A stretch of 54,351 bases of DNA, filler included, from Heptranchias perlo (lineage: Eukaryota): NCBI RefSeq assembly GCF_035084215.1. It is 2 parts of 2 records of this genome, joined end to end, with 100 filler letters (N's around TTAATTAATTAA, not from the genome) between each part and the next. Parts side by side here need not be neighbours in the genome. Positions count along the whole stretch, not along the records: positions 26,174 to 54,351 come from NC_090333.1; 1 more part is not named here. One strand, written 5' to 3'. Each line of letters opens with the position of its first letter. Positions within the stretch are counted from its first letter, which is position 1. Shown piece by piece: positions 22,891 through 45,900 of this stretch. Position numbers and translations under genes: made by a program. The notes beneath the pieces are model-generated. The model made no database searches. It was given only the letters and a program-made list of their open reading frames with translations, and was not told where the DNA came from.

Positions 22891-23130
22891 CTCGTAAATA
22901 GGGCGAGTAATCGGTTATCGCTCAGCGACCCTCTCTCCGGGGCCCCGTAAAGCACAATCGCAGATGCGGGCAGCCAGTCGCGCCACGTGTAGCAAGTTCA
23001 CGAGCCCATCACTAGCTCTGCCCCTAGACCAACGTACGAGTGACACGGAGGGGAGCCGATAAGAAAATTTAAACTCGGACATTTCTTTTCCCAAACCTTT
23101 CCTGGTTAAAATGAGAGGAACTCGTCTTAC

Positions 23131-23196
23131 CTCTTCCACGTTCAAGCTAGATTTGGCACTTGTTTCGAAGAATCGGATCCCGTGATCCTTTGCCAG
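23131..23196 (-). CDS. RAB13: RAB13 exon (LAKDHGIRFFETSAKSSLNVEE)
   Basis: gcag| acceptor and GAG|gtaaga donor; 66 bp; G5 box ETSAK. Confidence 0.93.
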
Positions 23197-23841
23197 CTGC
23201 AGCCAAGAGAAGAACAGACACAAAATTCAAGTTTATTATTACGGGATGCCCGGGTCTGGGTGTCGTGGCGACTGAAGGCCCGCTTGCACATTCCTTGGCT
23301 TTCAAAGAGCAGAATCAGGCAGAAAGACACTGGCGTTAACCGTAATTCTCTGTAAAGTCTTTTCCCCTTTCACCTCCAGGGGAGGAGAGGAGAGGAGAGA
23401 ACTGCCTGACGATTCCTAACTGGCGTACGGTTCCAGGGGAGCTGGCCAACGTTTCTAAACCGCTATCGGGAGGGAAAACTCAGGCTTCAGGACACGGGCA
23501 CTGCCCTTCCAAGCAGTGCAGTGCTGGATTCCTGCCCTCATTACCGAGGATTGATCCTTCAACTGCCTCTGTGTCCCACTCTCCTTGTACAGTGCAAGAT
23601 AAATCATATTTAACCAGGTGTTTCCACTTGTGGAGGGAGTCCAAAACTAAAGGAATATAATTATAAGATAGCTGCCAATAAATCCAAGATTTATCCATCT
23701 CCCGGGTATGCAAATACTACCATTTATAGAACTATACTGCAATCCATTAGCAGTGACTATGACACAATGTGTGTTATTTTAAATGTTTAACTAATGCTTG
23801 CTTATTGCAAATGAATTGCTATCATTATACGATCAGGAAAC

Positions 23842-24262
23842 ACTGAACAGGCTGGGGCTCTTTTCTCCAGAAAAGAGAAGGCTGAGGGGGTGACCTGATC
23901 GAGGTCTTTAAAATTATGAAAGGGTCTCGATAGGGTAGACGTAGAGAAGATGTTTCCACTTGTGGGGGGAGACCAGAACTTGGGGTCATAAATATAAGAG
24001 AGTCACTAATAAATCCAATAGGGAATTCAGGAGAAACCTCTTTACCCAGAGAGTGGTGAGAATGTGGAACTCGCTCCCACATGGAGTGGTTGAGGCGAAT
24101 AACATGGATGCATTTATGGGGAAGTACATGAAGGAGAAAGGAATAGAAGGATATGCTGATCGGGTTAGATGAAGTAGGGAAGGAGGAGGCTCGTGTGGAG
24201 CATAAACGCCGGCATGGACCAGTTGGGCCGAATGGCCTGTTTCTGTGCTATAAAATTCGATG
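23842..24262 (+). mobile_element. CR1-clade LINE 3' fragment, decayed
   Basis: RRNLFTQRVVRMWNSLP remnant and GGGCCGAATGGCCTGTTTCTGTGC tail; a second tail lies at ~24470-24640. Confidence 0.82.
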
Positions 24263-24966
24263 CATGTAAAGAGAAGAGGTGAGAAGATTGGGGAATCACA
24301 TTTCGCATTTTAAGCCACCGTTTATAAGATCCCCGACCTAATTGTAAATATTACTGTTTATAAAATTCCTGATCCAATTGTAAATATTCTGCCCGGCTCA
24401 CTATTGCGGTTATGCAGTGTGCATTCAAGAGAGTGTAATCTGCTCTGCCAAGAGGATCTGCAGCTGAGGGGAATAACATAGATGGATTTAAGGGGAAGCT
24501 GGATAAACACATGTGGGAGAAAGGGACTAGAAGGATATGCTGATAGGGTGAGATGAAGAGGGGTGGCAGGAGGCACGTTTGAAGCATAAACACCAGCATA
24601 GACCAGTTGGGCCGAATGGCCTGTTTCTGTGCAGTAAATTCGCTGTAATTCTGGGTGATGCTTCCTTCACCTCCAGCCTCACTATTTCCATCACAATCTT
24701 TCTTGCTCCATAATTAAAATCAGCACAATTACGCTCAGCGCTTCTCTGAAATTTTCCTCTCTCGTACCTCCTAATTCCCTCGGCCTACCACACACACTCT
24801 TCCTACCTCCCTGCATCCTCGCTGCGTTGAAACCGAGACGTACCTCACCGTCTCCTACTCTTAACTCATTCTTTCCCCAGCGCCTCAAGCTTCCACAGCC
24901 CGATCTACAAGCCTCCACAGCCCAAACACTACACAAGCACATGGGAGTCGGGATTGTCCAACTCAC

Positions 24967-25056
24967 CTTCTCTGCCTTGTCCTTGGCCACCTTCCTTTTA
25001 CTTTCCATGTCACACTTGTTTCCCAGTAACATTCGCTCGACCGTTGCCGAGGCGTT
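24967..25056 (-). CDS. RAB13: Ras-related protein Rab-13, internal exon ([30 protein letters not shown])
   Basis: gcag| acceptor and AAG|gtgagt donor; 90 bp; G4 box GNKCD; matches recalled human RAB13 [23 protein letters not shown] better than RAB8/RAB10. Confidence 0.92.
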
Positions 25057-25142
25057 CTGCGTGAAGGAAAGCATCAGCCATTAAACCCTCGAAGATTAGC
25101 GTTTACAAGTCACAAAATAAATATTGCATAGAGAGGACGGAA

Positions 25143-26073: not shown

Positions 26074-26173
26074 NNNNNNNNNNNNNNNNNNNNNNNNNNN
26101 NNNNNNNNNNNNNNNNNTTAATTAATTAANNNNNNNNNNNNNNNNNNNNNNNNNNNNNNNNNNNNNNNNNNNN
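26074..26173. other. Artificial junction spacer N44-TTAATTAATTAA-N44
   Basis: Exactly 100 bp and symmetric, with a palindromic core giving stop codons in all six frames; typical of contig-concatenation linkers. Confidence 0.9.
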
Positions 26174-26189
26174 GTGAAGGAAATGGTGC

Positions 26190-26270
26190 TGACGTGTCTT
26201 TCGATGGTGATCACATTTCCATAGTGAGGGGCGGGCAGTGAGACTCTCACAAGCTGCAGGTTTATAAAGC
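26190..26270 (+). promoter_or_regulatory. Ig light-chain V promoter (variant octamer, GC box, TATA)
   Basis: ATTTCCAT at 26215-26222 (one mismatch to octamer ATTTGCAT), GGGGCGGG at ~26228-26235, and TTTATAAA at 26261-26268, about 55 bp before the leader ATG. Confidence 0.6.
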
Positions 26271-26322
26271 AGAGCCCAGTAAAGGGACAGTTTATCAGTA
26301 ACCAGGCACAGGAGCAGACACC

Positions 26323-26371
26323 ATGCCTTCAACCATCCAACTGATCTGGGCTCTGGCATTCTGCATCGCAG
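26323..26371 (+). CDS. Ig kappa-type light chain leader exon (MPSTIQLIWALAFCIAG)
   Basis: ACCATG start, hydrophobic signal peptide, and a phase-1 donor G|gtacga matching the V exon acceptor. Confidence 0.92.
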
Positions 26372-26561
26372 GTACGAATCTCTCTCCTTCCACGTTTAAT
26401 ATTTTCCTGCTGTTGATTTCTGTCCAATTCTACAGACTTGTGATTGAGGGGAAAATACTGGAACAGGACGACCGGTCACTGTCTGTGGAACAATATCTCT
26501 CATTTTACAGCGTGTTTCTGTGACAGTTCTTAATTCACTTTGTTTCTCTCTTTCCCCTCAG

Positions 26562-26859
26562 GTATCAGTGGGGATATCATCATGACCCAGTCCCCTCCGG
26601 TGGTCTCAGTGAGCCCGGGACAGACCGCAACCATCTCCTGTACGGCCAGCGCATCCGTTAGCAGCTATGTTGCTTGGTACCAGCAGAAAACCGGACAGAA
26701 ACCCACTCTCCTGATCTATGGAGCAACAACTCGATTCACAGGAACATCCGACCGTTTCAGCGGTCGTCAAGAGTCCACGAAGTTCTACCTGACCATCAGC
26801 AATGTGCAGAACGAGGAATTCGCAGACTATTACTGTCAGCAGTATCAGAGCTACCCCCG
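26562..26859 (+). CDS. Ig light chain V segment, shark kappa (type III/NS4-like), germline unrearranged
   Basis: cctcag| acceptor; (G)[26 protein letters not shown]...WYQQ...LLIY...[11 protein letters not shown] with canonical Cys, Trp and YYC; followed directly by a 12-RSS. Confidence 0.95.
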
Positions 26860-26887
26860 CACTGTGAGACAGAGCCGTACAAAAACC
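26860..26887 (+). other. V recombination signal sequence, 12-bp spacer
   Basis: CACTGTG (26860-26866) + AGACAGAGCCGT (12 bp) + perfect nonamer ACAAAAACC (26879-26887). V-12/J-23 is the kappa configuration. Confidence 0.95.
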
Positions 26888-26900
26888 TCAATATACAGAT

Positions 26901-29900
26901 TCCCACCCCCTGTACTGACACATCCCACAGTGATATATAATATATAATAATGGGCACACAGTCCCACCCCCTGTACTGACACATCCCACAGTTATATATA
27001 ATATATAATAATGGACACACAGTCCCACCCCCTGTACTGACACATCCCACAGTTATATATAATATATAATAATGGACACACAGTCCCACCTCCTGTACTG
27101 ACACATCCCACAGTTATAGATAATATATAATAATGGACACACAGTCCCACCCCCTGTACTGACACATCCCACAGTTATATATAATATATAATAATGGACA
27201 CACAGTCCCACCTCCTGTACTGACACATCCCACAGTTATATATAATATATAATAATGGACACACAGTCCCACCTCCTGTACTGACACATCCCACAGTTAT
27301 ATATAATATATAATAATGGACACACAGTCCCACCTCCTGTACTGACACATCCCACAGTTATATATAATATATAATAATGGGCACACAGTCCCACCCCCTG
27401 TACTGACACATCCCACAGTTATATATAATATATAATAATGGACACACAGTCCCACCTCCTGTACTGACACATCCCACAGTTATATATAATATATAATAAT
27501 GGGCACACAGTCCCACCCCCTGTACTGACACATCCCACAGTTATATATAATATATAATAATGGACACACAGTCCCACCTCCTGTACTGACACATCCCACA
27601 GTTATATATAATATATAATAATGGACACACAGTCCCACCTCCTGTACTGACACATCCCACAGTTATATATAATATATAATAATGGACACACAGTCCCACC
27701 TCCTGTACTGACACATCCCACAGTTATATATAATATATAATAATGGACACACAGTCCCACCTCCTGTACTGACACATCCCACAGTTATATATAATATATA
27801 ATAATGGACACACAGTCCCACCTCCTGTACTGACACATCCCACAGTTATATATAATATATAATAATGGACACACAGTCCCACCCCCTGTACTGACACATC
27901 CCACAGTTATATATAATATATAATAATGGACACACAGTCCCACCTCCTGTACTGACACATCCCACAGTTATATATAATATATAATAATGGACACACAGTC
28001 CCACCCCCTGTACTGACACATCCCACAGTTATATATAATATATAATAATGGACACACAGTCCCACCTCCTGTACTGACACATCCCACAGTTATATATAAT
28101 ATATAATAATGGACACACAGTCCCACCTCCTGTACTGACACATCCCACAGTTATATATAATATATAATAATGGACACACAGTCCCACCTCCTGTACTGAC
28201 ACATCCCACAGTTATATATAATATATAATAATGGACACACAGTCCCACCTCCTGTACTGACACATCCCACAGTTATATATAATATATAATAATGGACACA
28301 CAGTCCCACCCCCTGTACTGACACATCCCACAGTTATATATAATATATAATAATGGACACACAGTCCCACCCCCTGTACTGACACATCCCACAGTTATAT
28401 ATAATATATAATAATGGACACACAGTCCCACCTCCTGTACTGACACATCCCACAGTTATATATAATATATAATAATGGACACACAGTCCCACCCCCTGTA
28501 CTGACACATCCCACAGTTATATATAATATATAATAATGGACACACAGTCCCACCCCCTGTACTGACACATCCCACAGTTATATATAATATATAATAATGG
28601 GCACACAGTCCCACCCCCTGTACTGACACATCCCACAGTTATATATAATATATAATAATGGACACACAGTCCCACCCCCTGTACTGACACATCCCACAGT
28701 TATATATAATATATAATAATGGACACACAGTCCCACCCCCTGTACTGACACATCCCACTGTTATATATAATATATAATAATGGACACACAGTCCCACCTC
28801 CTGTACTGACACACCCCACAGTTATATATAATATATAATAATGGGCACACAGTCCCACCCCCTGTACTGACACATCCCACAGTTATATATAATATATAAT
28901 AATGGGCACACAGTCCCACCCCCTGTACTGACACATCCCACAGTTATATATAATATATAATAATGGACACACAGTCCCACCCCCTGTACTGACACATCCC
29001 ACAGTTATATATAATATATAATAATGGACACACAGTCCCACCTCCTGTACTGACACATCCCACAGTTATATATAATATATAATAATGGACACACAGTCCC
29101 ACCCCCTGTACTGACACATCCCACAGTTATATATAATATATAATAATGGACACACAGTCCCACCTCCTGTACTGACACATCCCACAGTTATATATAATAT
29201 ATAATAATGGACACACAGTCCCACCTCCTGTACTGACACATCCCACAGTTATATATAATATATAATAATGGACACACAGTCCCACCTCCTGTACTGACAC
29301 ACCCCACAGTTATATATAATATATAATAATGGACACACAGTCCCACCCCCTGTACTGACACATCCCACAGTTATATATAATATATAATAATGGACACACA
29401 GTCCCACCTCCTGTACTGACACATCCCACAGTTATATATAATATATAATAATGGACACACAGTCCCACCCCCTGTACTGACACATCCCACAGTTATATAT
29501 AATATATAATAATGGACACACAGTCCCACCCCCTGTACTGACACATCCCACAGTTATATATAATATATAATAATGGACACACAGTCCCACCCCCTGTACT
29601 GACACATCCCACAGTTATATATAATATATAATAATGGACACACAGTCCCACCCCCTGTACTGACACATCCCACAGTTATATATAATATATAATAATGGAC
29701 ACACAGTCCCACCCCCTGTACTGACACATCCCACAGTTATATATAATATATAATAATGGACACACAGTCCCACCCCCTGTACTGGCACATCCCACAGTTA
29801 TATATAATATATAATAATGGACACACAGTCCCACCCCCTGTACTGACACATCCCACTGTTATATATAATATATAATAATGGACACACAGTCCCACCTCCT

Positions 29901-32900
29901 GTACTGACACACCCCACAGTTATATATAATATATAATAATGGACACACAGTCCCACCTCCTGTACTGACACATCCCACAGTTATATATAATATATAATAA
30001 TGGACACACAGTCCCACCCCCTGTACTGACACATCCCACAGTTATATATAATATATAATAATGGACACACAGTCCCACCCCCTGTACTGACACATCCCAC
30101 AGTTATATATAATATATAATAATGGACACACAGTCCCACCTCCTGTACTGACACATCCCACAGTTATATATAATATATAATAATGGACACACAGTCCCAC
30201 CTCCTGTACTGACACATCCCACAGTTATATATAATATATAATAATGGACACACAGTCCCACCCCCTGTACTGACACATCCCACAGTTATATATAATATAT
30301 AATAATGGGCACACAGTCCCACCCCCTGTACTGACACATCCCACAGTTATATATAATATATAATAATGGACACACAGTCCCACCTCCTGTACTGACACAT
30401 CCCACAGTTATATATAATATATAATAATGGACACACAGTCCCACCCCCTGTACTGACACATCCCACAGTTATATATAATATATAATAATGGACACACAGT
30501 CCCACCTCCTGTACTGACACATCCCACAGTTATATATAATATATAATAATGGACACACAGTCCCACCTCCTGTACTGACACATCCCACAGTTATATATAA
30601 TATATAATAATGGACACACAGTCCCACCCCCTGTACTGACACATCCCACAGTTATATATAATATATAATAATGGACACACAGTCCCACCCCCTGTACTGA
30701 CACATCCCACAGTTATATATAATATATAATAATGGGCACACAGTCCCACCCCCTGTACTGACACATCCCACAGTTATATATAATATATAATAATGGACAC
30801 ACAGTCCCACCCCCTGTACTGACACATCCCACAGTTATATATAATATATAATAATGGACACACAGTCCCACCCCCTGTACTGACACATCCCACTGTTATA
30901 TATAATATATAATAATGGACACACAGTCCCACCTCCTGTACTGACACACCCCACAGTTATATATAATATATAATAATGGGCACACAGTCCCACCCCCTGT
31001 ACTGACACATCCCACAGTTATATATAATATATAATAATGGGCACACAGTCCCACCCCCTGTACTGACACATCCCACAGTTATATATAATATATAATAATG
31101 GACACACAGTCCCACCCCCTGTACTGACACATCCCACAGTTATATATAATATATAATAATGGACACACAGTCCCACCTCCTGTACTGACACATCCCACAG
31201 TTATATATAATATATAATAATGGACACACAGTCCCACCCCCTGTACTGACACATCCCACAGTTATATATAATATATAATAATGGACACACAGTCCCACCT
31301 CCTGTACTGACACATCCCACAGTTATATATAATATATAATAATGGACACACAGTCCCACCTCCTGTACTGACACATCCCACAGTTATATATAATATATAA
31401 TAATGGACACACAGTCCCACCTCCTGTACTGACACACCCCACAGTTATATATAATATATAATAATGGACACACAGTCCCACCCCCTGTACTGACACATCC
31501 CACAGTTATATATAATATATAATAATGGACACACAGTCCCACCTCCTGTACTGACACATCCCACAGTTATATATAATATATAATAATGGACACACAGTCC
31601 CACCCCCTGTACTGACACATCCCACAGTTATATATAATATATAATAATGGACACACAGTCCCACCCCCTGTACTGACACATCCCACAGTTATATATAATA
31701 TATAATAATGGACACACAGTCCCACCCCCTGTACTGACACATCCCACAGTTATATATAATATATAATAATGGACACACAGTCCCACCCCCTGTACTGACA
31801 CATCCCACAGTTATATATAATATATAATAATGGACACACAGTCCCACCCCCTGTACTGACACATCCCACAGTTATATATAATATATAATAATGGACACAC
31901 AGTCCCACCCCCTGTACTGGCACATCCCACAGTTATATATAATATATAATAATGGACACACAGTCCCACCCCCTGTACTGACACATCCCACTGTTATATA
32001 TAATATATAATAATGGACACACAGTCCCACCTCCTGTACTGACACACCCCACAGTTATATATAATATATAATAATGGACACACAGTCCCACCTCCTGTAC
32101 TGACACATCCCACAGTTATATATAATATATAATAATGGACACACAGTCCCACCCCCTGTACTGACACATCCCACAGTTATATATAATATATAATAATGGA
32201 CACACAGTCCCACCCCCTGTACTGACACATCCCACAGTTATATATAATATATAATAATGGGCACACAGTCCCACCCCCTGTACTAACACATCCCACAGTT
32301 ATATATAATATATAATAATGGACACACAGTCCCACCCCCTGTACTGACACATCCCACAGTTATATATAATATATAATAATGGGCACACAGTCCCACCTCC
32401 TGTACTGACACACCCCACAGTTATATATAATATATAATAATGGACACACAGTCCCACCTCCTGTACTGACACATCCCACAGTTATATATAATATATAATA
32501 ATGGACACACAGTCCCACCTCCTGTACTGACACATCCCACAGTTATATATAATATATAATAATGGACACACAGTCCCACCCCCTGTACTGACACATCCCA
32601 CAGTTATATATAATATATAATAATGGACACACAGTCCCACCTCCTGTACTGACACATCCCACAGTTATATATAATATATAATAATGGACACACAGTCCCA
32701 CCCCCTGTACTGACACATCCCACAGTTATATATAATATATAATAATGGACACACAGTCCCACCCCCTGTACTGACACATCCCACAGTTATATATAATATA
32801 TAATAATGGACACACAGTCCCACCCCCTGTACTGACACATCCCACAGTTATATATAATATATAATAATGGACACACAGTCCCACCTCCTGTACTGACACA

Positions 32901-34903
32901 TCCCACAGTTATATATAATATATAATAATGGACACACAGTCCCACCTCCTGTACTGACACATCCCACAGTTATATATAATATATAATAATGGACACACAG
33001 TCCCACCCCCTGTACTGACACATCCCACAGTTATATATAATATATAATAATGGGCACACAGTCCCACCCCCTGTACTGACACATCCCACAGTTATATATA
33101 ATATATAATAATGGACACACAGTCCCACCTCCTGTACTGACACATCCCACAGTTATATATAATATATAATAATGGACACACAGTCCCACCCCCTGTACTG
33201 ACACATCCCACAGTTATATATAATATATAATAATGGGCACACAGTCCCACCCCCTGTACTGACACATCCCACAGTTATATATAATATATAATAATGGACA
33301 CACAGTCCCACCCCCTGTACTGACACATCCCACAGTTATATATAATATATAATAATGGACACACAGTCCCACCCCCTGTACTGACACATCCCACAGTTAT
33401 ATATAATATATAATAATGGACACACAGTCCCACCTCCTGTACTGACACATCCCACAGTTATATATAATATATAATAATGGACACACAGTCCCACCCCCTG
33501 TACTGACACATCCCACAGTTATATATAATATATAATAATGGACACACAGTCCCACCTCCTGTACTGACACATCCCACAGTTATATATAATATATAATAAT
33601 GGGCACACAGTCCCACCTCCTGTACTGACACATCCCACAGTTATATATAATATATAATAATGGACACACAGTCCCACCTCCTGTACTGACACATCCCACA
33701 GTTATATATAATATATAATAATGGACACACAGTCCCACCTCCTGTACTGACACATCCCACAGTTATATATAATATATAATAATGGGCACACAGTCCCACC
33801 CCCTGTACTGACACACCCCACAGTGATATATAATATATAATAATGGACACACAGTCCCACCCCCTGTACTGACACATCCCACAGTTATATATAATATATA
33901 ATAATGGGCACACAGTCCCACCCCCTGTACTGACACACCCCACAGTTATATATAATATATAATAATGGACACACAGTCCCACCCCCTGTACTGACACATC
34001 CCACAGTTATATATAATATATAATAATGGACACACAGTCCCACCTCCTGTACTGACACACCCCACAGTTATATATAACATATAATAATGTACACACAGTC
34101 CCACCTCCTGTACTGACACATCCCACAGTTATATATAATATATAATAATGTACACACAGTCCCACCTCCTGTACTGACACACCCCACAGTTATATATAAT
34201 ATATAATAATGGACACACAGTCCCACCTCCTGTACTGACACATCCCACAGTTATATATAATATATAATAATGGACACACAGTCCCACCTCCTGTACTGAC
34301 ACATCCCACAGTTATATATAATATATAATAATGGGCACACAGTCCCACCCCCTGTACTGACACATCCCACAGTTATATATAATATATAATAATGGACACA
34401 CAGTCCCACCTCCTGTACTGACACATCCCACAGTTATATATAACATATAATAATGGGCACACAGTCCCACCCCCTGTACTGACACATCCCACAGTTATAT
34501 ATAATATATAATAATGGACACACAGTCCCACCTCCTGTACTGACACATCCCACAGTTATATATAATATATAATAATGTACACACAGTCCCACCTCCTGTA
34601 CTGGCACATCCCACAGTTATATATAATATATAATAATGGACACACAGTCCCACCTCCTGTACTGGCACATCCCACAGTTATATATAATATATAATAATGG
34701 ACACACAGTCCCACCTCCTGTACTGACATATCCCACAGTTATATATAATATATAATAATGGACACACAGTCCCACCTCCTGTACTGGCACATCCCACAGT
34801 TATTTATAATAGATAATAATGGACACACAGTCCCACCCCCTGTACTGACACATCCCACAGTTATATATAATATATAATAATGGACACACAGTCCCACCTC
34901 CTG
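26901..34903. repeat. 61-bp minisatellite, ~131 copies, filling the V-J interval
   Basis: Unit GGACACACAGTCCCACC(T/C)CCTGTACTGACACATCCCACAGTTATATATAATATATAATAAT; the register shifts by 1 per 60-nt line; highly homogeneous. Confidence 0.98.
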
Positions 34904-35129
34904 GAGGGAGAGAGGGTAAGGAACGGGGAGAGGGAGAGAGGGTGAGGGAGGGAGGGAGAAGGTGAGGGAGGGAGGGGGAGAGGGAGAGAGGGTGAGGGAC
35001 GGGGAGTGGGAGAGGGAGAGAGGGTGAGGGTGAGGGAGGGAGGGGGAGAGAGGGAGAGAGAGGGAGAGGGTGAGGGAGGGGGAGAGGGAGAGAGGGAGAG
35101 AGGGTGAGGGAGGGGGAGAGGGGGAGAGG
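34903..35129. repeat. Polypurine (GA/GGA-rich) low-complexity tract
   Basis: About 225 bp, almost entirely G/A on the + strand (GAGGGAGAGAGGGTGAGG-like units). Confidence 0.9.
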
Positions 35130-35146
35130 CTCACGCAGGGGGCAGA

Positions 35147-35185
35147 GGATATTGTACAGCTCCTGCACTGTCAGCTCTCAGTGTG
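35147..35185 (-). other. J recombination signal sequence, 23-bp spacer, non-consensus nonamer
   Basis: + strand GGATATTGT (35147-35155) + 23 bp + CAGTGTG (35179-35185) abutting J; reads CACACTG-23-ACAATATCC on the minus strand. Confidence 0.88.
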
Positions 35186-35220
35186 GGTTACGTTCGGTAA
35201 AGGAACCAAGCTCAGACTCA
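35186..35220 (+). CDS. Ig light chain J segment (VTFGKGTKLRL)
   Basis: FGxGT motif; phase-1 donor A|gtgagt compatible with the C exon. Confidence 0.95.
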
Positions 35221-36417
35221 GTGAGTAAATTTACTAACCATTATTAACCCGTTAAATGCTGAACCTTTCTCACACACCAATGCTGAATACTCGAAGGTGT
35301 TGGTGAGGAGCTGCGGTGAATGAAATGGTTCATTGAAGAGTACTTTGTATGACAGGGTCCCAGGCTGTACTTTCTTTAGTTCCACTCCCCCCTTCGACCA
35401 GCAAAGTATAAGTAACAAACTTTTACCGAGAGTGTGGAGGAGATCTGGGCGTTTGCAGACTGCAGTCACATTCCTGCACCATTGAGTGGAATAACTCACT
35501 GGAATCCTGGCAGTCTCAGTGCCAACAGACACGGGCAGAGTGTGGGGTGAGCCCTGGGCACTCTGTGCCCTGTAGGACTCTCTGATGTAACTGAGCACAG
35601 CATCAGCACAGTGAGACAAGCACAGAGGTCCCACCTCGAAACACACAACTCTCCTCCAGCTTTAACTGGGAGATCTGTCCAGTCCCCCGTTACCTGGTGT
35701 CCAAGTTCTGCTCACAAACGGGTACAGCAGGGCTCTCAATCGATTGGATTCATGTTCAAGGGGTTTGGGGAGACTCTCAGTTGCTTTGTCTTTGGGTCGA
35801 ATCCAGGTCGATATTTACCCCAAAAACCAACATCGCTAAAAATGGCCATTTATCTCATTGCTGTTTGTGGGATCTTGCTGTGCACAAATTGGCTGCCACA
35901 TTTCCCACATTACAACAGTGACTACACTTCAGAAAAAGTACTTCATTGGCTGTAAAGCACTTTGGGCGGTCCTGGGATTGTGAAAGGTGCCATAAAAATA
36001 CAAGTTCCTCCCATTCTTTTGATGAACTGGGGTCTCAGACAATTCCCCTGTTTAAATCTGACCCGGCAGAAAATCCCCCCAGAAAACTGATTAATATTGG
36101 CCTGATTTGTCTGCGTGTTTATTAGACGTGACAGACCAGACAGGGAGAGTTTCACCAGCAACAAAGGACGTTCCATTAGTGCCCGTCCCACTTTCCCGAT
36201 CGACTTACGACATTCTTACAGGTAAACAATCTCTGCCCACTGCCATCGACCGGTTCCATATCACCCCTCTAGACTATGGGCATACCCGTGATCTGCTCCC
36301 CTCCTCTCTCCTGAAGGCACTGCCTCTGGCTGGGGTAAAGCTCCACCTTCCCCAAGTGGGGTCGTTCCTCCAAGTCTGAGCCCGGAGGGTGAGCGCGGCA
36401 GGCTATTCGACCATGAG

Positions 36418-36952
36418 GTGTCAGCCATGGCTCAGTGGGTCAGAAGGTCGTGGGTTCAAGACCCACTCCAGAGACTTGAGCCCATAATCCAGGCTGACAC
36501 CCACAGTGCAGTTCTGAGGGAGTGCTGCACTGTCGGAGGGCCAGTACTGATGGAGTGCTGCACTGTCGGAGGGCCAGTACTGAGGGAGTGCTGCACTGTC
36601 GGAGGGCCAGTACTGAGGGAGTGCTGCACTGTCGGAGGGCCAGTACTGAGGGAGTGCTGCACTGTCGGAGGGCCAGTACTGAGGGAGTTCTGCACTGTCG
36701 GAGGGCCAGTACTGAGGGAGTGCTGCACTGTCGGAGGTGCCGCCTTTCGGGTGAGACATTAAACCGAGGCCCCGTCTGCCCTCTCAGGTGGATGTAAAAG
36801 ATCCCACAGCACGATTTGAAGAAGAGCAGTGGAGTTCACCCCGGTGTTAAAACAGATGATCTGCTCATTATCACATTGCTGTTTGTGGGATCTTGCTGTG
36901 TGCAAATTGGCTGCTGTGTTTCTCACATAAAAACAGTGACTGCACTTCAGAA
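36418..36952 (+). mobile_element. tRNA-derived Deu-domain-like SINE with an internal 33-bp x ~7 expansion (36509-36738)
   Basis: tRNA-like head (TGGCTCAGTGG...GGTTCAAGACCC); body matches the other SINE copies in the window; repeated CAGTACTGAGGGAGTGCTGCACTGTCGGAGGGC. Confidence 0.85.
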
Positions 36953-36960
36953 GTGGGAGA

Positions 36961-37156
36961 ATCCTGATCCTGACCCTGACCCTCCCTGACCCTGATCCTG
37001 ACCCTGACTCTCCCTGACCTTGACCCCGATCCTGACCCTCCCTGACCCCGATTCTAACCCTGACCCTGATCCTGACCCTGACCCATTGTCCACACGCACC
37101 TTCCAGGGGGTCGTGGGATTATTAGGAGCGGTGACCCTCCCTGACCCTGACCCTGA
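36961..37156. repeat. Degenerate (CCCTGA)n hexamer repeat
   Basis: Runs of CCTGAC/CCTGAT in two patches. Confidence 0.85.
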
Positions 37157-37696
37157 GGTCAATTGTAGCCTGACCCCAGTGCTGGGAGGCAAGGTTTTCA
37201 ATTAAATCTGGAACCTTCTCCACCCAGACCCACGATGAAGCCTTTCTGAAGTGTGTTGATACAAGTCTGCTCCAGGGTCCAATGTTCTGGGGTAAAGTTC
37301 CCCCTGATCTGTGTGTGATCTGAGCTTTGTTAATGCTGAGCCTGTTTCCTCCAGATAGACTGATCTATAGTTCGAGCTTCCTGCCCGGTTAACAGCGTCT
37401 TAAAGGGACACCCAGTCTTTAAGTACTCTGACTATTAACCATTTCATCGCTGAATTTGTGGCAACCCTTCATTGCAGATGTTTATCGAACAGTCCAATCT
37501 GATTTATCCATCTTAACATCAAACCATCCGGTGTATTTATATTTAGATTAAATTTGAGAGGCAAAAAAAAGCAAATTAAGAATTAGCGATGCTCACCTGA
37601 AATGGTTAATCGTCCGCCGGGAGTTCATTGTCCCAGCAATCCGTTATCTGAGGTGAATTTTCCAAACACAGAAGCACCCACAGAGACACGCACCCA

Positions 37697-38428
37697 AATA
37701 TACACAACAGAACACACCAATATACACAACAGAACACACCAATATACACAACAGAACACACCAATATACACAACAGAACACACCAATATACACAACAGAA
37801 CGCACCAATATACACAACAGAACACACCAATATACACAACAGAACACACCAATATACACAACAGAACGCACCAATGTGCACAACAGAACACACCAATATA
37901 CACAACAGAACGCACCAATATACACAACAGAACGCACCAATATGCACAACAGAACGCACCAATATACACAACAGAACACACCAATGTGCACAACAGAACA
38001 CACCAATATGCACAACAGAACGCACCAATATACACAACAGAACACACCAATATGCACAACAGAACGCACAACAGAACACACCAATATGCACAACAGAACG
38101 CACCAATATGCACAACAGAACGCACCAATATACACAACAGAACGCACCAATATACACAACAGAACACACCAATATGCACAACAGAACGCACCAATATACA
38201 CAACAGAACACACCAATATGCACAACAGAACGCACCAATATACACAACAGAACACACCAATATGCACAACAGAACGCACAACAGAACACACCAATATGCA
38301 CAACAGAACACACCAATATACACAACAGAACGCACCAATATGCACAACAGAATGTACACAAATATACACAACAGAACACACCAATGTACACAACAGAATG
38401 TGCACAAATATACACAACAGAACACCCA
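37697..38428. repeat. 22-bp minisatellite, ~33 copies, in the J-C intron
   Basis: Unit AATAT(A/G)CACAACAGAAC(A/G)CACC; explains the stacked spurious ORFs at 37602-38522. Confidence 0.95.
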
Positions 38429-39989
38429 AGTACACACACACAGATGTGTCACATTAAGTTGTACGACTGACACTAACACCTTCCCCAGCCTGTCTGCTCA
38501 GGAGCAGGTTTCTGCACCGTGAACATGTGTCTCATTACATATTCATGACACCGGGTTCATTTGCATTTCTTTTCCCATTACTTGCCTTTCTCTTCAGCCT
38601 TTTAAAGTAAAGTCTGAGCCCATTTCCCCCCAGACTCTGGGCCTTTTCCATTTTGGGATGTTGGTTGTTTTAAGATGGTGTTTCGAGGGGCCATTCCCGA
38701 GGGTCTGTGACACAGGAAGTGCTGTTGTCTGACAGTTATTCCTTGTATTCACCACCCCAGCTCCGTGCAGCTCTCCCGGTCGATCTGCTCTGAATGGAGA
38801 CAGGACACTGGCTGCCTGCCGTAGTCACAAGACTGTGACCCGCCCAGCTCCCCAATGGCATGTGGGCACTGAGACACACACACCAGGAGGAGCCCAGCTT
38901 CATTCCCTGGTCCGTGCCGAGGAACAGGAGGAGGCCATTCAGCCCCTCCAGCCTGTTCCTCCATTGAATGAGATCATGACTGGTCTGTCCCTGATCTCCA
39001 TTTACCCTCCTTTGCTCCATATCCTCGATACCCTCCCCCAACAAAAATCGATCCATCTCAGTACTGAAAGCTCCTATTGACCCCCACCATCCACAGCCTT
39101 TTGGGGGAGGGGGTTCCAGATTTCCACTCCCCCTTGAGTGAAAAAGTGCTTCCTGATTTCACCCCTGAATGGCCAGGCTCGAATTACAGAGAATTACATC
39201 GAATTTACAGCACAGAAACAGGCCATTCGGCCCAACAGTAGTGTTAGGATTGTGTCCCCTTGTTCTGGGGGGGTTGCCGCTGAGGAGCAGCCGTTGGACT
39301 TGGTGCCCCCTCTAAATGAGGGAGGGGGATCCTGCTCCTGATTGCCATCCAGTGACACCCCCCTTCTCTCCCCCAACACCCCCCACTGTTGAAGGCAATG
39401 GTTTCAGGAGATGAGGGGAGAATGAACACAGAAACACAGTGAGGGCCAGTCCCTGTGTTATCTTGTCCCCCTCTTACCCTGTGTGGGGGGTTTCATAGAA
39501 TCACAGAATCATACAGCACAGAAGGAGGCCATTCGGCCCATCCTCCCTATGCTAGCTCTTTGAAAGAGCTATCCAATTAGTCTCACTCCCCTGCTCTTTC
39601 CCCATAGCCCCGACATTTTTTCCCTTTTCAAGTATTTATTCGGTTCCCTTTTGAAAGTTACTATTGAATCTTCCTCCCCCCACCCTTTCAGGCCGTGTGT
39701 TCCAGATCACAACAACTCACTGAGCAAAACAATTTCTCCATCTCTCCTCTCTGGTTCTTTACCAATTACCTCAAACCCGTTACCTCTGGTTACCGACCCT
39801 CCTGCCACTGGAAACAGTTCCTCCCGATTTGCTCCATTAAAACCCTTCATGATTTTGAGCACCTCTATTAAATCTCCCCTTGACCTTCTCTGCTCTCAGG
39901 GTCGTCTCAATAACACCACACAGTTTTGCTGGCCCGTTTTACTGGCTGTTCATTTTATGCTCTCCCCTCATGGGATCAGACTCTGTCGA

Positions 39990-40415
39990 TCTGCTGCCCG
40001 TATCCTAACTCGTACCAAGTCCCGTTCACCCATCACCCCAGTGCTCGCTGACCTACATCGGCTCCCAGTCCAGCAAAGTCCTCATCTTTGTGTTCAAATC
40101 CCTCCATGGCCTTGCCCTGCCCAATCTCTGTAACCTCCTCCAGCCCTTCAACCCTCCGAGATCTCTGCGCTCCTCCAATTCTGGTCTCTTGTTCATCCCC
40201 GATTTTCATCGCTCCACCATTGGCGGCCGTGCCTTCAGCTGCCTGGGCCCTAAGCTCTGGAATTCCCGCCCTAAACTTCTTTGCCCCTCCCCCTCTCTCT
40301 CCTCCTTTAAGATGCTCCTTCAAACCTACCTCTTTGACCAAGCTTTGAGTCACCAGTCCTAATATCTCCTCAAGAGTCAATTTCTGTCCGAGAAACTTCC
40401 TGTGAAGCGCCTTAG
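39990..40415 (+). mobile_element. L2-like LINE 3' fragment in the J-C intron
   Basis: SAARILTRTKSRSPITPVLADLHRLPV / FKSLHGLA...GGRAFSCLGPKLWNS...SFKMLLQTYLFDQA; CR1 tails nearby at ~38920-39180, ~39495-39895 and ~40428-40575. Confidence 0.8.
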
Positions 40416-40797
40416 GGACATGGGAAAAGGAGGAGGCCATTCAGCCCCTCGAGTATGTTCCGCCATTCAATTAGATCATGGCTGATGTGCATCGTAACTC
40501 TGTCCACCGGCCTTCATTTCCTGACCCTTAATAATCTTGTCTAACAAAAACCTATCGGTCTCAGTTTTGAATCCTTGGGATGTTTTACTATGTTAAAGGC
40601 ACTATATAAATGCAAGTTGTTGTTGTAGTGGAGTGCAGGTCAATAAGAGGTTGTCGTGGGTACGGTGTGGGCTCCTCAGACTGGCCCTGTGCTGCCAGCC
40701 GAGGCCTTGCCCACCGTCCTACTCTGGCCCTCGCGAGGAGGCCTCGGGGAGAGACTCCAAACTCCCATTAAAAGTCCTTGTCTTTCATCTCTTTCAG

Positions 40798-41126
40798 CCC
40801 GAGAGAAGGTTCAACCATCGCTGACCCTGATGCCCCCCTCCCCGGAGGAGGTCTCGGCCAAGGGCACTGCCACCCTGGTGTGCCTCGTCGATCACTTCTA
40901 CCCCGACGCTGTGGGGGTGGAGTGGAAGAAGGACGGGGCGGCCATTTCGGGCGGGGTTCAGACCAGTGACTACCTGCGAGCTTCGGACAACACCTACAGT
41001 GTCAGTAGCCTGCTGACCCTCTCCGGCTCCGACTGGAAGTCTGACGCCAGCTTCTCCTGCGCCATCACCCACGAGACCCTTCAGTCTCCCCTCAGCAAGA
41101 GCATCAGGAGAACAGAATGTTCATAG
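40798..41126 (+). CDS. Ig light chain constant exon, shark kappa type (REKVQPSLTLMPPSPEEVSAKGTATLVCLVDHFYP...FSCAITHETLQSPLSKSIRRTECS*)
   Basis: ctttcag| acceptor in phase 1; C1-set motifs ATLVCL-FYP-W-YSVSSLL-FSC-H; penultimate Cys for the H-L disulfide; TAG at 41124-41126. Confidence 0.96.
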
Positions 41127-41282
41127 AGCGTCAGAGACAGTCCACAGAGGAGACGGAACCTTAAATATAACAGGGGGCGAGTGGGGAGGGCAAAGGTCAT
41201 TGTCAGCACTGCATTTCCACTCTCTTCCTTATCGTGATTGGGTCTGAGACGCTTCTCAGGTTGGGGGTTAAGGCACATTATT

Positions 41283-42096
41283 GGGACAGTGTAGAGGGAG
41301 CTTTACTCTGTATCTAACCCGTGCTGTACCTGCCCTGGGAGTGTTTGATGGGACAGTGTAGAGGGAGCTTTACTCTGTATCTAACCCGTGCTGTACCTGC
41401 CCTGGGAGTGTTTGATGGGACAGTGTAGAGGGAGCTTTACTCTGTATCTAAACCGTGCTGTACCTACCCTGGGAGTGTTTGATGGGACAGTGTAGAGGGA
41501 GCTTTACTCTGTATCTAACCCGTGCTGTACCTGCCCTGGGAGTGTTTGATGGGACATTGTAGAGGGAGCTTTACTCTGTATCTAACCCGTGCTGTACCTG
41601 TCCTGGGAGTGTTTGATGGGACAGTGTAGAGGGAGCTTTACTCTGTATCTAAACCGTGCTGTACCTGCCCTGGGAGTGTTTGATGGGACAGTGTAGAGGG
41701 AGCTTTACTCTGTATCTAACCCGTGCTGTACCTGCCCTGGGAGTGTTTGATGGGACAGTGTAGAGGGAGCTTTACTCTGTATCTAACCCGTGCTGTACCT
41801 GCCCTGGGAGTGTTTGATGGGACAGTGTAGAGGGAACTTTACTCTGTATCTAACCCGTGCTGTACCTACCCTGGGAGTGTTTGATGGGACAGTGTAGAGG
41901 GAGCTTTACTCTGTATCTAACCCGTGCTGTACCTGCCCTGGGAGTGTTTGATGGGACAGTGTAGAGGGAGCTTTACTCTGTATCTAACCCGTGCTGTACC
42001 TGCCCTGGGAGTGTTTGATGGGACAGTGCAGAGGGAGCTTTACTCTGTATCTAACCCGTGCTGTACCTGCCCTGGGAGTGTTTGATGGGACAGTGT
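41283..42096. repeat. 67-bp tandem repeat, ~12 copies, in the putative Ig C 3' UTR
   Basis: Unit GGGACAGTGTAGAGGGAGCTTTACTCTGTATCTAACCCGTGCTGTACCTGCCCTGGGAGTGTTTGAT. Confidence 0.96.
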
Positions 42097-42111
42097 CGAC
42101 TTGTGATGCCA

Positions 42112-42117
42112 AATAAA
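42112..42117 (+). terminator. Candidate polyadenylation signal of the light-chain transcript
   Basis: First AATAAA I can find after the C stop codon. Confidence 0.6.
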
Positions 42118-42915
42118 ACCTCTCTCAGACCCTGAAGACTGTCAGCTGAGCAAAAATAATGTTAAACACGGAAGTCCCCGCTTCAGTAAGACCAGACCTC
42201 CTTCCTGCTCACCCTGCAGTTATAATTTAAGGTTTTGTCACCGTTTAAAGGGACAGGATTCTCCCATTATTGAGCAAATGCCCACAGCCGTTTTAATCAA
42301 TCTTCTCTCTCCCTGTGTATTTCTCCTACTCGTTGGGCTGTTTATTCAATTCTTTTTTCTGTAAATGTAAATGTGTAAAAGGTAATAAATGTTCAGAATA
42401 TTCAGTCTCCGTCTCGTGAGTGCTGTGGAAATGTCCCACCTCCCCCTCAGCTGGATTGGCTGCATTTCAGCAAGTGACTCCCCTGGTTGGGCTGTCAATC
42501 AATGCATCACCAGCTGATGATTTGATTAAAACCCAATTCTCAATCATTTCAACATTTTCAGTTTTCCCTCGAATCCAAAGACTATGTTTTCAGGATAAAG
42601 CACAAAGTGTACAAGTTATAAAACAGAAAATAAACTCCAAGCTGCTGGGATTAAATCATCAAAGGCCCAGAATTCACTCTTCACTCTGCACACTGGAGGT
42701 GTTGGTCCAGTCCAAGCTGGTGGGATCGCACTGTGCTCTGTGCTGACTGTCAGGGTCCAGTGTGAAATGGGCTCGGGGCAAAGTCAGGTCTGAAAGTCAC
42801 AGTCAGAACACCTCATTCTCTCTCCTTAATGTGTTGCTCGTGGTAACAGATCAAATCTATACCGAATCAGGTCTCCACTTCTCAGAGAGAGGAGGGGTCA
42901 GAGTATAACTGTGTA

Positions 42916-45900
42916 CATGCCCCTGAGTGTCAGTGTGACTGTTTCCCAGTACTGTCTGTAGGTGGATGTCCCTGACTGTCAGTGTGACTGTTACCCAGTA
43001 CTGTCGGTAGGTGCATGTCGCTGACTGTCAGTGTGACTGTTACCCAGTACTGTCTGTAGGTGGATGGCCCTGACTGTCAGTGTGACTGTTTCCCAGTACT
43101 GTCTGTAGGTGGATGTCCCTGACTGTCAGTGCGACTGTTACCCAGTACTGTCTGTAGGTGGATGGCCCTGACTGTCAGTGTGACTGTTTCCCAGTACTGT
43201 CTGTAGGTGGATGTCCCTGACTGTCAGTGCGACTGTTACCCAGTACTGTCTGTAGGTGCATGGCCACGACTGTCAGTGTGACTGTTACCCAGTACTGTCT
43301 GTAGGTGCATGTCCCTGACTGTCAGTGCGACTGTTTCCCAGTACTGTCTGTAGGTGCATGTCCCTGACTGTCGGTGTGACTGTTTCCCAGTACTGTCTGT
43401 AGGTGCATGTCCCTGACTGTCAGTGTGACTGTTACCCAGTACTGTCTGTAGGTGCATGTCCCTGAGTGTCAGTGTGACTGTTTCCCAGCACTGTCTGTAG
43501 GTGCATGGCCCTGACTGTCAGTGTGACTGTTACCCAGTACTGTCTGTAGGTGCATGTCCCTGAGTGTCAGTGTGACTGTTACCCAGTACTGACTGTAGGT
43601 GCATGGCCCTGAGTGTCAGTGTGACTGTTTCCCAGCACTGTCTGTAGGTGCATGGCCCTGACTGTCAGTGTGACTGTTACCCAGTACTGTCTGTAGGTGC
43701 ATGTCCCTGAGTGTCAGTGTGACTGTTACCCAGTACTGACTGTAGGTGCATGGCCCTGACTGTCGGTGTGACTGTTACCCAGTACTGTCTGTAGGTGCAT
43801 GGCCCTGACTGTCAGTGTGACTGTTACCCAGTACTGTCTGTTGGTGCATGGCCCTGACTGTCAGTGTGACTGTTACCCAGTACTGTCTGTAGGTGCATGG
43901 CCCTGACTGTCAGTGTGACTGTTACCCAGTACTGTCTGTAGGTGCATGGCCCTGACTGTCGGTGTGACTGTTACCCAGTACTGTCTGTAGGTGCATGGCC
44001 CTGACTGTCAGTGCGACTGTTACCCAGTACTGTCTGTTGGTGCATGGCCCTGACTGTCAGTGTGACTGTTACCCAGTACTGTCTGTAGGTGCATGTCCCA
44101 GACTGTCAGTGTGACTGTTTCCCAGTACTGTCTGTAGGTGCATGTCCCTGACTGTCAGTGTGACTGTTACCCAGTACTGTCTGTAGGTGGATGTCCTTGA
44201 CTGTCGGTGTGACTGTTACCCAGTACTGTCTGTAGGTGCATGTCCCTGACTGTCAGTGTGACTGTTACCCAGTACTCTCTGTAGGTGCATGTCCCTGCCT
44301 GTCGGTGTGACTGTTACCCAGTACTGTCTGTAGGTGGATGTCCTTGACTGTCGGTGTGACTGTTACCCAGTACTGTCTGTAGGTGGATGTCCTTGACTGT
44401 CGGTGTGACTGTTACCCAGTACTGTCTGTTGGTGGATGTCCCTGCCTGTCAGTGTGACTGTTACCCAGTACTGTCTGTAGGTGGATGTCCCTGACTGTCA
44501 ATGTGACTGTTTCCCAGTACTGTCTGTAGGTGCATGTCCCTGACTGTCAGTATGACTGTTACCCAGTACTGTCTGTAGGTGGAGGTCCCTGACTGTCGGT
44601 GCGACTGTTACCCAGTACTGTCTGTAGGTGCATGTCCCTGACTGTCAGTACGACTGTTTCTCAGTACTGTCTGTAGGTGGATGTCCCTGACTGTCGGTGC
44701 GACTGTTCCCCAGTACTGTCTGTAGGTGCATGTCCCTGACTGTCAGTATGACTGTTACCCAGTACTGTCTGTAGGTGCATGGCCCTGACTGTCGGTGCGA
44801 CTGTTACCCAGTACTGTCTGTAGGTGCATGTCCCTGTCAGTGTGACTGTTACCCAGTACTGTCTGTTGGTGGATGTCCCTGACTGTCGGTGCGACTGTGA
44901 CCCAGTACTGTCTGTTGGTGCATGTCCCTGACTGTCGGTGCGACTGTTTCCCAGTACTGTCTGTAGGTGCATGTCCCTGACTGTCGGTGCGACTGTTACC
45001 CAGTACTGTCTGTAGGTGCATGTCCCTGACTGTCGGTGCGACTGTTACCCAGTACTGTCTGTAGGTGCATGGCCCTGACTGTCGGTGCGACTGTTACCCA
45101 GTACTGTCTGTAGGTGGATGTCCCTGACTGTCGGTGCGACTGTTACCCAGTACTGTCTGTAGGTGCATGTCCCTGACTGTCAGTGCGACTGTTTCCCAGT
45201 ACTGTCTGTAGGTGCATGTCCCTGACTGTCAGTACGACTGTTACCCAGTACTGTCTGTTGGTGCATGTCCCTGACTGTCAGTACGACTGTTTCCCAGTAC
45301 TGTCTGTAGGTGCATGTCCCTGACTGTCGGTGCGACTGTTACCCAGTACTGTCTGTAGGTGCATGTCCCTGACTGTCAGTGTGACTGTTACCCAGTACTG
45401 TCTGTTGGTGCATGTCCCTGACTGTCAGTACCACTGTTACCCAGTACTGTCTGTAGGTGCATGTCCCTGACTGTCAGTACGACTGTTTCCCAGTACTGTC
45501 TGTAGGTGCATGGCCCTGACTGTCAGTGCGACTGTTACCCAGTACTGTCTGTAGGTGGATGTCCCTGACTGTCGGTGCGACTGTTACCCAGTACTGTCTG
45601 TAGGTGCATGGCCCTGACTGTCGGTGCGACTGTTACCCAGTACTGTCTGTAGGTGCATGGCCCTGACTGTCGGTGCGACTGTTACCCAGTACTGTCTGTA
45701 GGTGCATGGCCCTGACTGTCGGTGTGACTGTTACCCAGTACTGTCTGTAGGTGCATGTCCCTGACTGTCAGTGTGACTGTTACCCAGTACTGTCTGTTGG
45801 TGGATGTCCCTGACTGTCAGTGTGACTGTTACCCAGTATTGTCTGTGGGTGCATGTCCCTGACTGTCGGTGCGACTGTTTCCCAGTACTGTCTGTAGGTG

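What the first reader, a model, noticed from the sequence alone, without database searches (positions are those of the whole stretch)
26860..35185. V-J interval of ~8.3 kb made almost wholly of tandem repeat
Seen: apart from the two RSSs, only a few tens of bp of unique sequence lie between V and J. The rest is 8.0 kb of 61-mer and ~225 bp of polypurine. Deletional joining would excise an 8326-bp circle that is nearly pure satellite. Established: shark Ig genes occur as multiple V-(D)-J-C clusters whose rearranging segments are usually only hundreds of bp apart. Inference: VNTR copy number could set V-J distance per cluster or allele and so influence cluster usage. Such clusters would also be missed by PCR and short-read surveys.
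Basis: partly seen in the sequence, partly recalled or inferred. Interest (0 to 1): 0.7.

Follow-up and report, generated by a model that had tools for sequence, protein, structure and literature searches.

The report
Working shark antibody gene, repeat-stretched
In one shark, the two pieces of an antibody light-chain gene that normally lie about 500 bases apart are separated by 8,300 bases of a young tandem repeat grown from the gene's own spacer, yet the gene still appears to be cut, joined and expressed, so short spacing is not required.

Summary
Observation confirmed to the base: 26860-35185 is the 8326-bp V-J interval of an intact shark Ig kappa (NS4-type) cluster: RSS12, 13 bp, 131.2 x 61-bp units, a 226-bp purine tract, 17 bp, RSS23. 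Read data from the same animal (one sample, contigs only) add three things. (1) The cluster appears to work: RNA-type contigs carry this V with no mismatch, spliced to its leader and joined to J in four different in-frame junctions; the two DNA runs show no joined form. (2) The array is not over-expanded: unit depth is about twice what 131 copies predict (rough). (3) The repeat is home-grown: its first ~33 bases match the V-RSS flank in kappa gene models of sharks from four orders, and one unit instead of 131 gives a 396-bp interval, inside the published 250-500 bp. Best reading: tolerated minisatellite expansion in a satellite-rich region. A regulatory role for copy number is untested; no paralogous V at 85% or more was seen, so the test here is between alleles. 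New variant of a known kind; moderate interest as a natural distance experiment.

The parts
26215..26222 (+). octamer-like motif (one mismatch to the Ig octamer, recalled consensus), TATA-like run at ~26261
   Evidence: sequence; function not tested
26323..26371 (+). kappa leader exon (coding part)
   Evidence: splice to V seen in an RNA-type contig, 190-nt GT..AG skip, 0 mismatches
26562..26859 (+). V-kappa exon, open frame, both Cys and Trp kept
   Evidence: 67-77% to eight shark kappa-type proteins, 34% to the one lambda-labelled protein
26860..26887 (+). 12-bp-spacer RSS of V
26888..26900 (+). 13-bp unique flank, conserved in other sharks' kappa flanks; 26900 reads G instead of T in run X1
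26901..34903 (.). 61-bp minisatellite, 131 units + 12 bp; first ~33 bp of the unit match the ancestral V flank; exact 27-unit block duplicated at 28426 and 30561; most diverged units at the J end; no CpG
34904..35129 (+). G/A-only-like purine tract with G-runs (G4-pattern match); a purine-rich stretch also precedes the J RSS in a Stegostoma model
35147..35185 (-). 23-bp-spacer RSS of J
35186..35220 (+). J-kappa (FGKGT motif), splice donor at 35221
   Evidence: same letters at loose ends of RNA-type contigs
40798..41126 (+). C-kappa exon, in frame with J, ends in stop
   Evidence: (85% to Heterodontus kappa, 50% to lambda-labelled)
41282..42096 (+). 67-bp x 12.2 array in the probable 3' UTR; first AATAAA at 42112

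Best explanation
An intact, somatically rearranging shark Ig kappa minicluster whose V-J spacer has been lengthened in place by a young minisatellite. Steps: (1, inferred) the ancestral spacer was about 400 bp: RSS12, conserved flank, AT-rich stretch, purine tract, RSS23. (2, inferred) A 61-bp piece starting 13 bp behind the nonamer was duplicated by slippage or unequal exchange at short flanking repeats, then grew by further unequal exchange, including a 27-unit block duplication. (3, shown at contig level) RAG still joins V to J by deletion, with ordinary trimming and P/N addition, and the product is spliced and transcribed. (4, inferred) Because the array is deleted on joining and holds no usable RSS facing V, selection on its length is weak; it drifts as a VNTR, like the other arrays packed around this gene.
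For: Four different junctions in two RNA-type runs, all in frame (CDR3 ends YPFTF, YPRPF, YPRTF, YPLTF; V loss 0-2, J loss 2-5, 0-2 added bases). V and leader in the main RNA contigs have 0 mismatches; DNA runs X1 and X2 show one V contig each and no loose end at the V end. X8 contig 25 is 818 nt, against 821 predicted for this V+J+C+3'UTR up to the 67-mer array. Six of 31 kappa/lambda hits read through the RSS in the window's frame and match 8, 7, 3, 10, 6 and 6 of the 11 residues encoded by the unit's start. A one-unit interval is 396 bp; published 250-500 bp (PMC5192425). 27-unit exact block vs at most 9 in 300 shuffles; J-end units 3-4 times more diverged. 77% of 26174-54351 is tandem repeat, in seven separate arrays.
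Against: All read data come from one sample that may be the source of the assembly; contigs only, no read spans the array, RNA status is the tool's guess, and a filter drops some records. J letters are near-identical among shark kappa genes, so cis joining is inferred, not seen. Rearrangement rate was not measured, so 'tolerated' does not mean 'without effect'; in a yeast RAG system, intersignal length and content changed rates 4- to 10-fold (PMC12216023 passages). Conservation of the amplified flank across four orders could mean it has a function. The flank homology rests on automated gene models read as protein, not on DNA alignments.
Confidence: 0.65

Rival explanations
1. Regulatory dial: copy number of a conserved flank element sets V-J distance or the dose of a protein-binding site, and so tunes how often or how early each allele rearranges.
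For: The amplified piece is conserved behind the V RSS in Heterodontus, Cetorhinus, Scyliorhinus and Stegostoma models. Signs of two different alleles: T/G at 26900, two unit variants in X1 absent from the assembly, depth about twice the assembled copy number. Distance affects RAG rates in a yeast system.
Against: No usage data by allele. The gene is well represented in both RNA-type runs laid. Neighbouring arrays with unrelated units sit in the intron, 3' UTR and downstream, which points to a regional tendency. 8 kb is short beside tetrapod V-J distances (established knowledge).
Confidence: 0.12
2. The transcripts come from an unseen identical V with a short interval, or from joining to another cluster's J; the long cluster itself rarely rearranges.
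For: The lay-on filter omits records and no piece spans V to J. Nurse shark has about 60 kappa genes (PMC5192425). The X2 V contig stops at 26899.
Against: Uniform single-contig depth over V in both DNA runs; both versions seen at 26900 (window T, X1 G) continue into the 61-mer; no loose end between 26860 and 26900 in DNA. Contig length fits this C and 3' UTR within 3 nt. Inter-cluster joining is rare in nurse shark IgH, 1 possible case in 97 (PMC2435157).
Confidence: 0.1
3. Assembly over-expansion: the true array is much shorter than 8 kb.
For: An exact 27-unit (1647-bp) internal duplication could be an overlap error; no spanning read was available.
Against: The duplicated block has period 35 with unlike spacers, not a perfect tandem copy; units have no indels; X2 contigs of the commonest unit words have 213 and 224 times the V depth, where the assembled array predicts 108 and 105. 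Error, if any, is more likely under-estimation.
Confidence: 0.07
4. Decoy array: each unit's weak 23-spaced cryptic RSS draws RAG or allows inversional V-to-array joins that inactivate an allele.
For: 131 cryptic 23-spaced sites on the + strand, 127 with at most 4 mismatches in total; 62 of 5000 shuffled units do as well.
Against: The nonamer-like part lacks the A-run that RAG1 needs (established knowledge); the test was post hoc; no such site faces V on the - strand (best 7 mismatches); no RNA contig showed V joined to array letters.
Confidence: 0.05

Closest known systems
Nurse shark split NS4 (Ig kappa, type III) clusters (Lee et al. 2000, PMC2193156; passages read)
   Same: Leader, ~190-nt intron (186 there), one V, one J, one C; split in the germline; somatic junctions.
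   Different: Interval 8326 bp against 502-524 bp; 'repeat' and 'repetitive' do not occur in that paper's text; many copies there, one V at 85% or more seen here.
Shark Ig miniclusters in general (PMC5192425, PMC2435157, PMC4279169, PMC12227049; passages read)
   Same: Joining within a cluster; cluster number varies from one to about 100 by species.
   Different: Stated spacing is 250-500 bp; this one is 16-30 times longer and still appears to join.
Minisatellites seeded by short flanking repeats (Haber and Louis model, as summarised in PMC6947457; passage read)
   Same: Unit amplified in place, interspersed variant units, block duplication, diverged edge.
   Different: Lies between paired RSSs, so it is cut out as a circle in B cells; the unit comes from a conserved Ig flank rather than a transposon.
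Human IGH minisatellite upstream of JH (recalled; one search did not return the primary papers)
   Same: A VNTR inside a rearranging interval, removed on joining, proposed to be regulatory.
   Different: There it is a small part of a very large locus; here it is 96% of the whole V-J distance. No sequence comparison was made.

Membership tests
Elasmobranch Ig kappa (NS4/type III) split cluster | V and C closest to kappa | tested here: met
   C 85% to Heterodontus kappa vs 50% to lambda-labelled; V 67-77% vs 34%. Labels are the sources' own; three Pristiophorus hits labelled lambda-1-like align with the kappa group.
Elasmobranch Ig kappa (NS4/type III) split cluster | One V, one J, one C in the same orientation | tested here: met
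   tblastn with four light chains finds one V, one J region and one C in the window
Elasmobranch Ig kappa (NS4/type III) split cluster | 12-RSS at V facing 23-RSS at J | tested here: met
   kappa-type spacing is recalled
Elasmobranch Ig kappa (NS4/type III) split cluster | Open frames, splice sites, somatic V-J joining | tested here: met
   one sample, contigs only
Elasmobranch Ig kappa (NS4/type III) split cluster | V-J interval about 500 bp (typical, not defining) | tested here: not met
   8326 bp; 396 bp with a single unit
Elasmobranch Ig kappa (NS4/type III) split cluster | Octamer promoter | tested here: inconclusive
   only a one-mismatch motif at 26215; sequence upstream of 26174 is N
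Elasmobranch Ig kappa (NS4/type III) split cluster | Many similar clusters per genome | tested here: inconclusive
   one V contig at 85% or more in each of X1 and X2, but records are filtered and no genome was held
Minisatellite VNTR | Head-to-tail 10-100 bp units with interspersed variants | tested here: met
Minisatellite VNTR | Allelic variation in copy number | tested here: inconclusive
   T/G at 26900, extra unit variants and about twofold depth excess fit a second allele, but also a second locus or a collapsed array
Minisatellite VNTR | Origin between short flanking repeats | tested here: inconclusive
   array starts and ends in the same 12-bp word, with C at its dimorphic site on the left edge and T on the right; suggestive only
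Regulatory VNTR | Copy number changes expression or recombination | not testable with these tools
   needs phased alleles and usage data

The most novel reading that the evidence does not exclude
This is the animal's main or only kappa cluster, so its kappa repertoire depends on joining across 8 to perhaps 25 kb of VNTR; the repeat is a conserved V-flank element multiplied more than a hundredfold, and allele length biases which allele rearranges first, giving sharks a heritable distance- or dose-based control of light-chain allelic choice.
Probability: 0.12. Interest if true: 0.75.

Novelty: new variant of a known kind. Interest (0 to 1): 0.42.

Why it matters
The shark model of Ig rearrangement leans on segments being ~400 bp apart and opened together without locus contraction (PMC2435157). 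A cluster that appears to join productively across more than 8 kb shows that this closeness is not required, and long and short alleles in one animal would test directly whether distance biases allelic choice. In practice, germline V-J PCR and short-read assemblies would break or miss such clusters, which bears on cluster counts. Each joining event would also release a circle of nearly pure satellite DNA.

Tried and rejected
No genome was held, so other clusters and haplotypes could not be tabulated. A region search for more read-through models found no candidate (weak). Four array units fold no better than shuffles (z -1.24). Rfam: 0 matches in 26174-43500. The unit occurs nowhere else in the window. 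Foreign satellite insertion: rejected, since the unit's start matches kappa flanks of other sharks. Germline-joined gene: rejected, split in window and DNA contigs. Pseudogene: rejected. Earlier-findings look-ups gave nothing relevant. Nine literature searches showed no report of a tandem array filling a shark V-J interval, but three key papers (Criscitiello and Flajnik 2007; two J Immunol papers from the Hsu laboratory) are not held, and I recall, without being able to check, that some nurse shark loci have longer segment distances; that would lower the novelty of the distance as such. No supplements were read.

Full report
Observation. A 12-spaced RSS begins at 26860 and a 23-spaced RSS ends at 35185 on the other strand. 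Between them lie 13 unique bases, 8003 bp of a 61-mer (131 full units plus 12 bp), a 226-bp purine tract and 17 unique bases. Every full unit is 61 bp; there are 19 variants and mean identity to consensus is 98.6%.

The gene. Leader 26323-26371, V 26562-26859, J 35186-35220 and C 40798-41126 have open frames and normal splice sites. The C domain is 85% identical to Heterodontus kappa and 50% to lambda-labelled chains among 31 hits; V is 67-77% to eight kappa-type proteins and 34% to one lambda-labelled protein. [quoted passage not shown] It is a shark kappa (NS4, type III) cluster; the species was not determined. Published spacing is 502-524 bp for nurse shark NS4 (PMC2193156, passages) and 250-500 bp for shark segments in general (PMC5192425, passages).

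Does it rearrange? I laid 4 of 8 listed runs, all from one sample that may be the assembly's source, on 26174-26961 at 85% likeness. In the two DNA-type runs V is covered by one contig each, with no difference in the exons and no loose end at the V end. In the two RNA-type runs (a guess by the tool, backed by the 190-nt GT..AG splice and exon-limited depth) the main contigs match leader and V without mismatch and leave V at 26857, 26858, 26860 and 26862 into letters identical to this J. These are four different junctions, all in frame, with 0-2 bases lost from V, 2-5 from J and 0-2 added; in the two untrimmed V ends the first added base fits a P nucleotide. One contig is 818 nt; this V, J, C and 3' UTR up to the first repeated 31-mer of the 67-bp array predict 821. 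So the cluster very probably rearranges somatically across the array. Cis joining is inferred: no piece spans V to J, J is conserved among clusters, and the tool filters records.

Is the length real? No spanning read was available. In X2, contigs of the commonest unit words have depths 1230 and 1293 against 5.78 for V, i.e. 213 and 224 times; the assembled array predicts 108 and 105. The tool warns that contig depth is no copy number, and V depth is low, so this is rough, but it points away from over-expansion. X1 reads G at 26900 where the window has T, X2's contig stops at 26899, and two unit variants seen in X1 are absent from the assembled array. A longer second allele, a collapsed array or a second locus would all fit.

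Where the repeat came from. Some automated kappa gene models of other sharks read through the V RSS and so expose its flank as protein. Six of the 31 hits do so in the window's frame (Heterodontus 1, Cetorhinus 2, Scyliorhinus 3); they match 8, 7, 3, 10, 6 and 6 of the 11 residues encoded by the first 33 bases of the unit, some models splicing away before the end. Three more read through in another frame; one (Stegostoma) matches six consecutive residues there and shows a purine-rich stretch before the J RSS, and two give no match. The other 22 give no information. So the unit is a native piece of the kappa spacer. With one unit the interval would be 396 bp. The array starts and ends in the same 12-bp word, holds an exact 27-unit block twice at period 35 (at most 9 in 300 shuffles), and its last 21 units carry 0.95 changes per unit against 0.23-0.36 elsewhere. 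This fits slippage or unequal exchange from short flanking repeats (model summarised in PMC6947457, passage).

Context. From 26174 on, 77% of the window is tandem repeat, with unrelated arrays in the J-C intron (33, 6 and 22 bp), the 3' UTR (67 bp) and downstream (49 bp, over 11 kb). Small shark chromosomes are known to be richer in GC and simple tandem repeats (PMC10620051, passages). The V-J array therefore looks like one of many local expansions. The left half of the window (2% tandem repeat) is separated by an N spacer and may not be contiguous.

Mechanism and rivals. Best (0.65): tolerated in-place expansion in a working cluster; the array is deleted on joining and offers no RSS-like site facing V (best minus-strand site has 7 mismatches). 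Rivals: a regulatory dial (0.12), for which the conserved unit, possible allele differences and distance effects in a yeast RAG system (PMC12216023, passages) speak, but no usage data; an unseen short-interval source of the transcripts (0.10), against which inter-cluster joining is rare in nurse shark (PMC2435157, passages); over-expansion (0.07); cryptic-RSS decoys (0.05; each unit has a weak plus-strand 23-spaced site, matched by 62 of 5000 shuffles, but without the nonamer A-run).

Novelty. Nine searches showed no tandem array filling a shark V-J interval; three key papers were not held, and longer distances at some nurse shark loci are recalled but unchecked. Cluster number from one to about 100 is known (PMC12227049, passages); joining within clusters is restated in PMC4279169 (passages). 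Verdict: a real new variant of a known system, mechanistically probably ordinary, valuable as a natural test of whether segment closeness matters in sharks. Interest 0.42.

Noticed in passing
window 26074-26173: 44 N, a 12-bp word with stops in all six frames, 44 N. Looks like a join spacer; DNA contigs run 42-47 letters upstream of 26174 and stop. The left half may be unrelated to the Ig contig.
   Followed up: partly
window 5723-11070 and 22915-25080, minus strand: Exon-like frames resembling APH1A and the 3' half of a RAB13/RAB8-type GTPase (names recalled, no family search); the GTPase's 5' motifs are absent from the window.
   Followed up: partly
window 26562-26859, runs X1 and X2: Only one V at 85% or more in each DNA run: this shark may have one or very few kappa clusters of this family, unlike about 60 in nurse shark.
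   Followed up: partly
window 26318-26860, runs X5 and X8: Low-depth contigs (2.5-5) with 1-6 differences, one with the leader's splice donor changed and the intron retained; may be somatic hypermutation or error.
   Followed up: no
window 26901-26961, runs X5 and X8: Trace contigs of the 61-mer (depth 3-5) in RNA-type runs: germline transcript or DNA carry-over.
   Followed up: no
window 41282-42096: The kappa mRNA probably carries a 67-bp x 12 array in its 3' UTR, ahead of the first AATAAA at 42112.
   Followed up: partly
window 42916-54351: 49-bp array of at least 234 copies running off the window's end.
   Followed up: no
proteins P0003, P0009, P0012: Gene models of other sharks link V, RSS flank and J RSS in frame into a long-CDR3 chain; probably prediction artefacts, possibly spliced germline transcripts.
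   Followed up: no
window V framework 3 (~26755-26830): Unusual residues where most shark kappa chains have the GSGSGT and EDVA motifs; expressed without mismatch, so germline-encoded.
   Followed up: no
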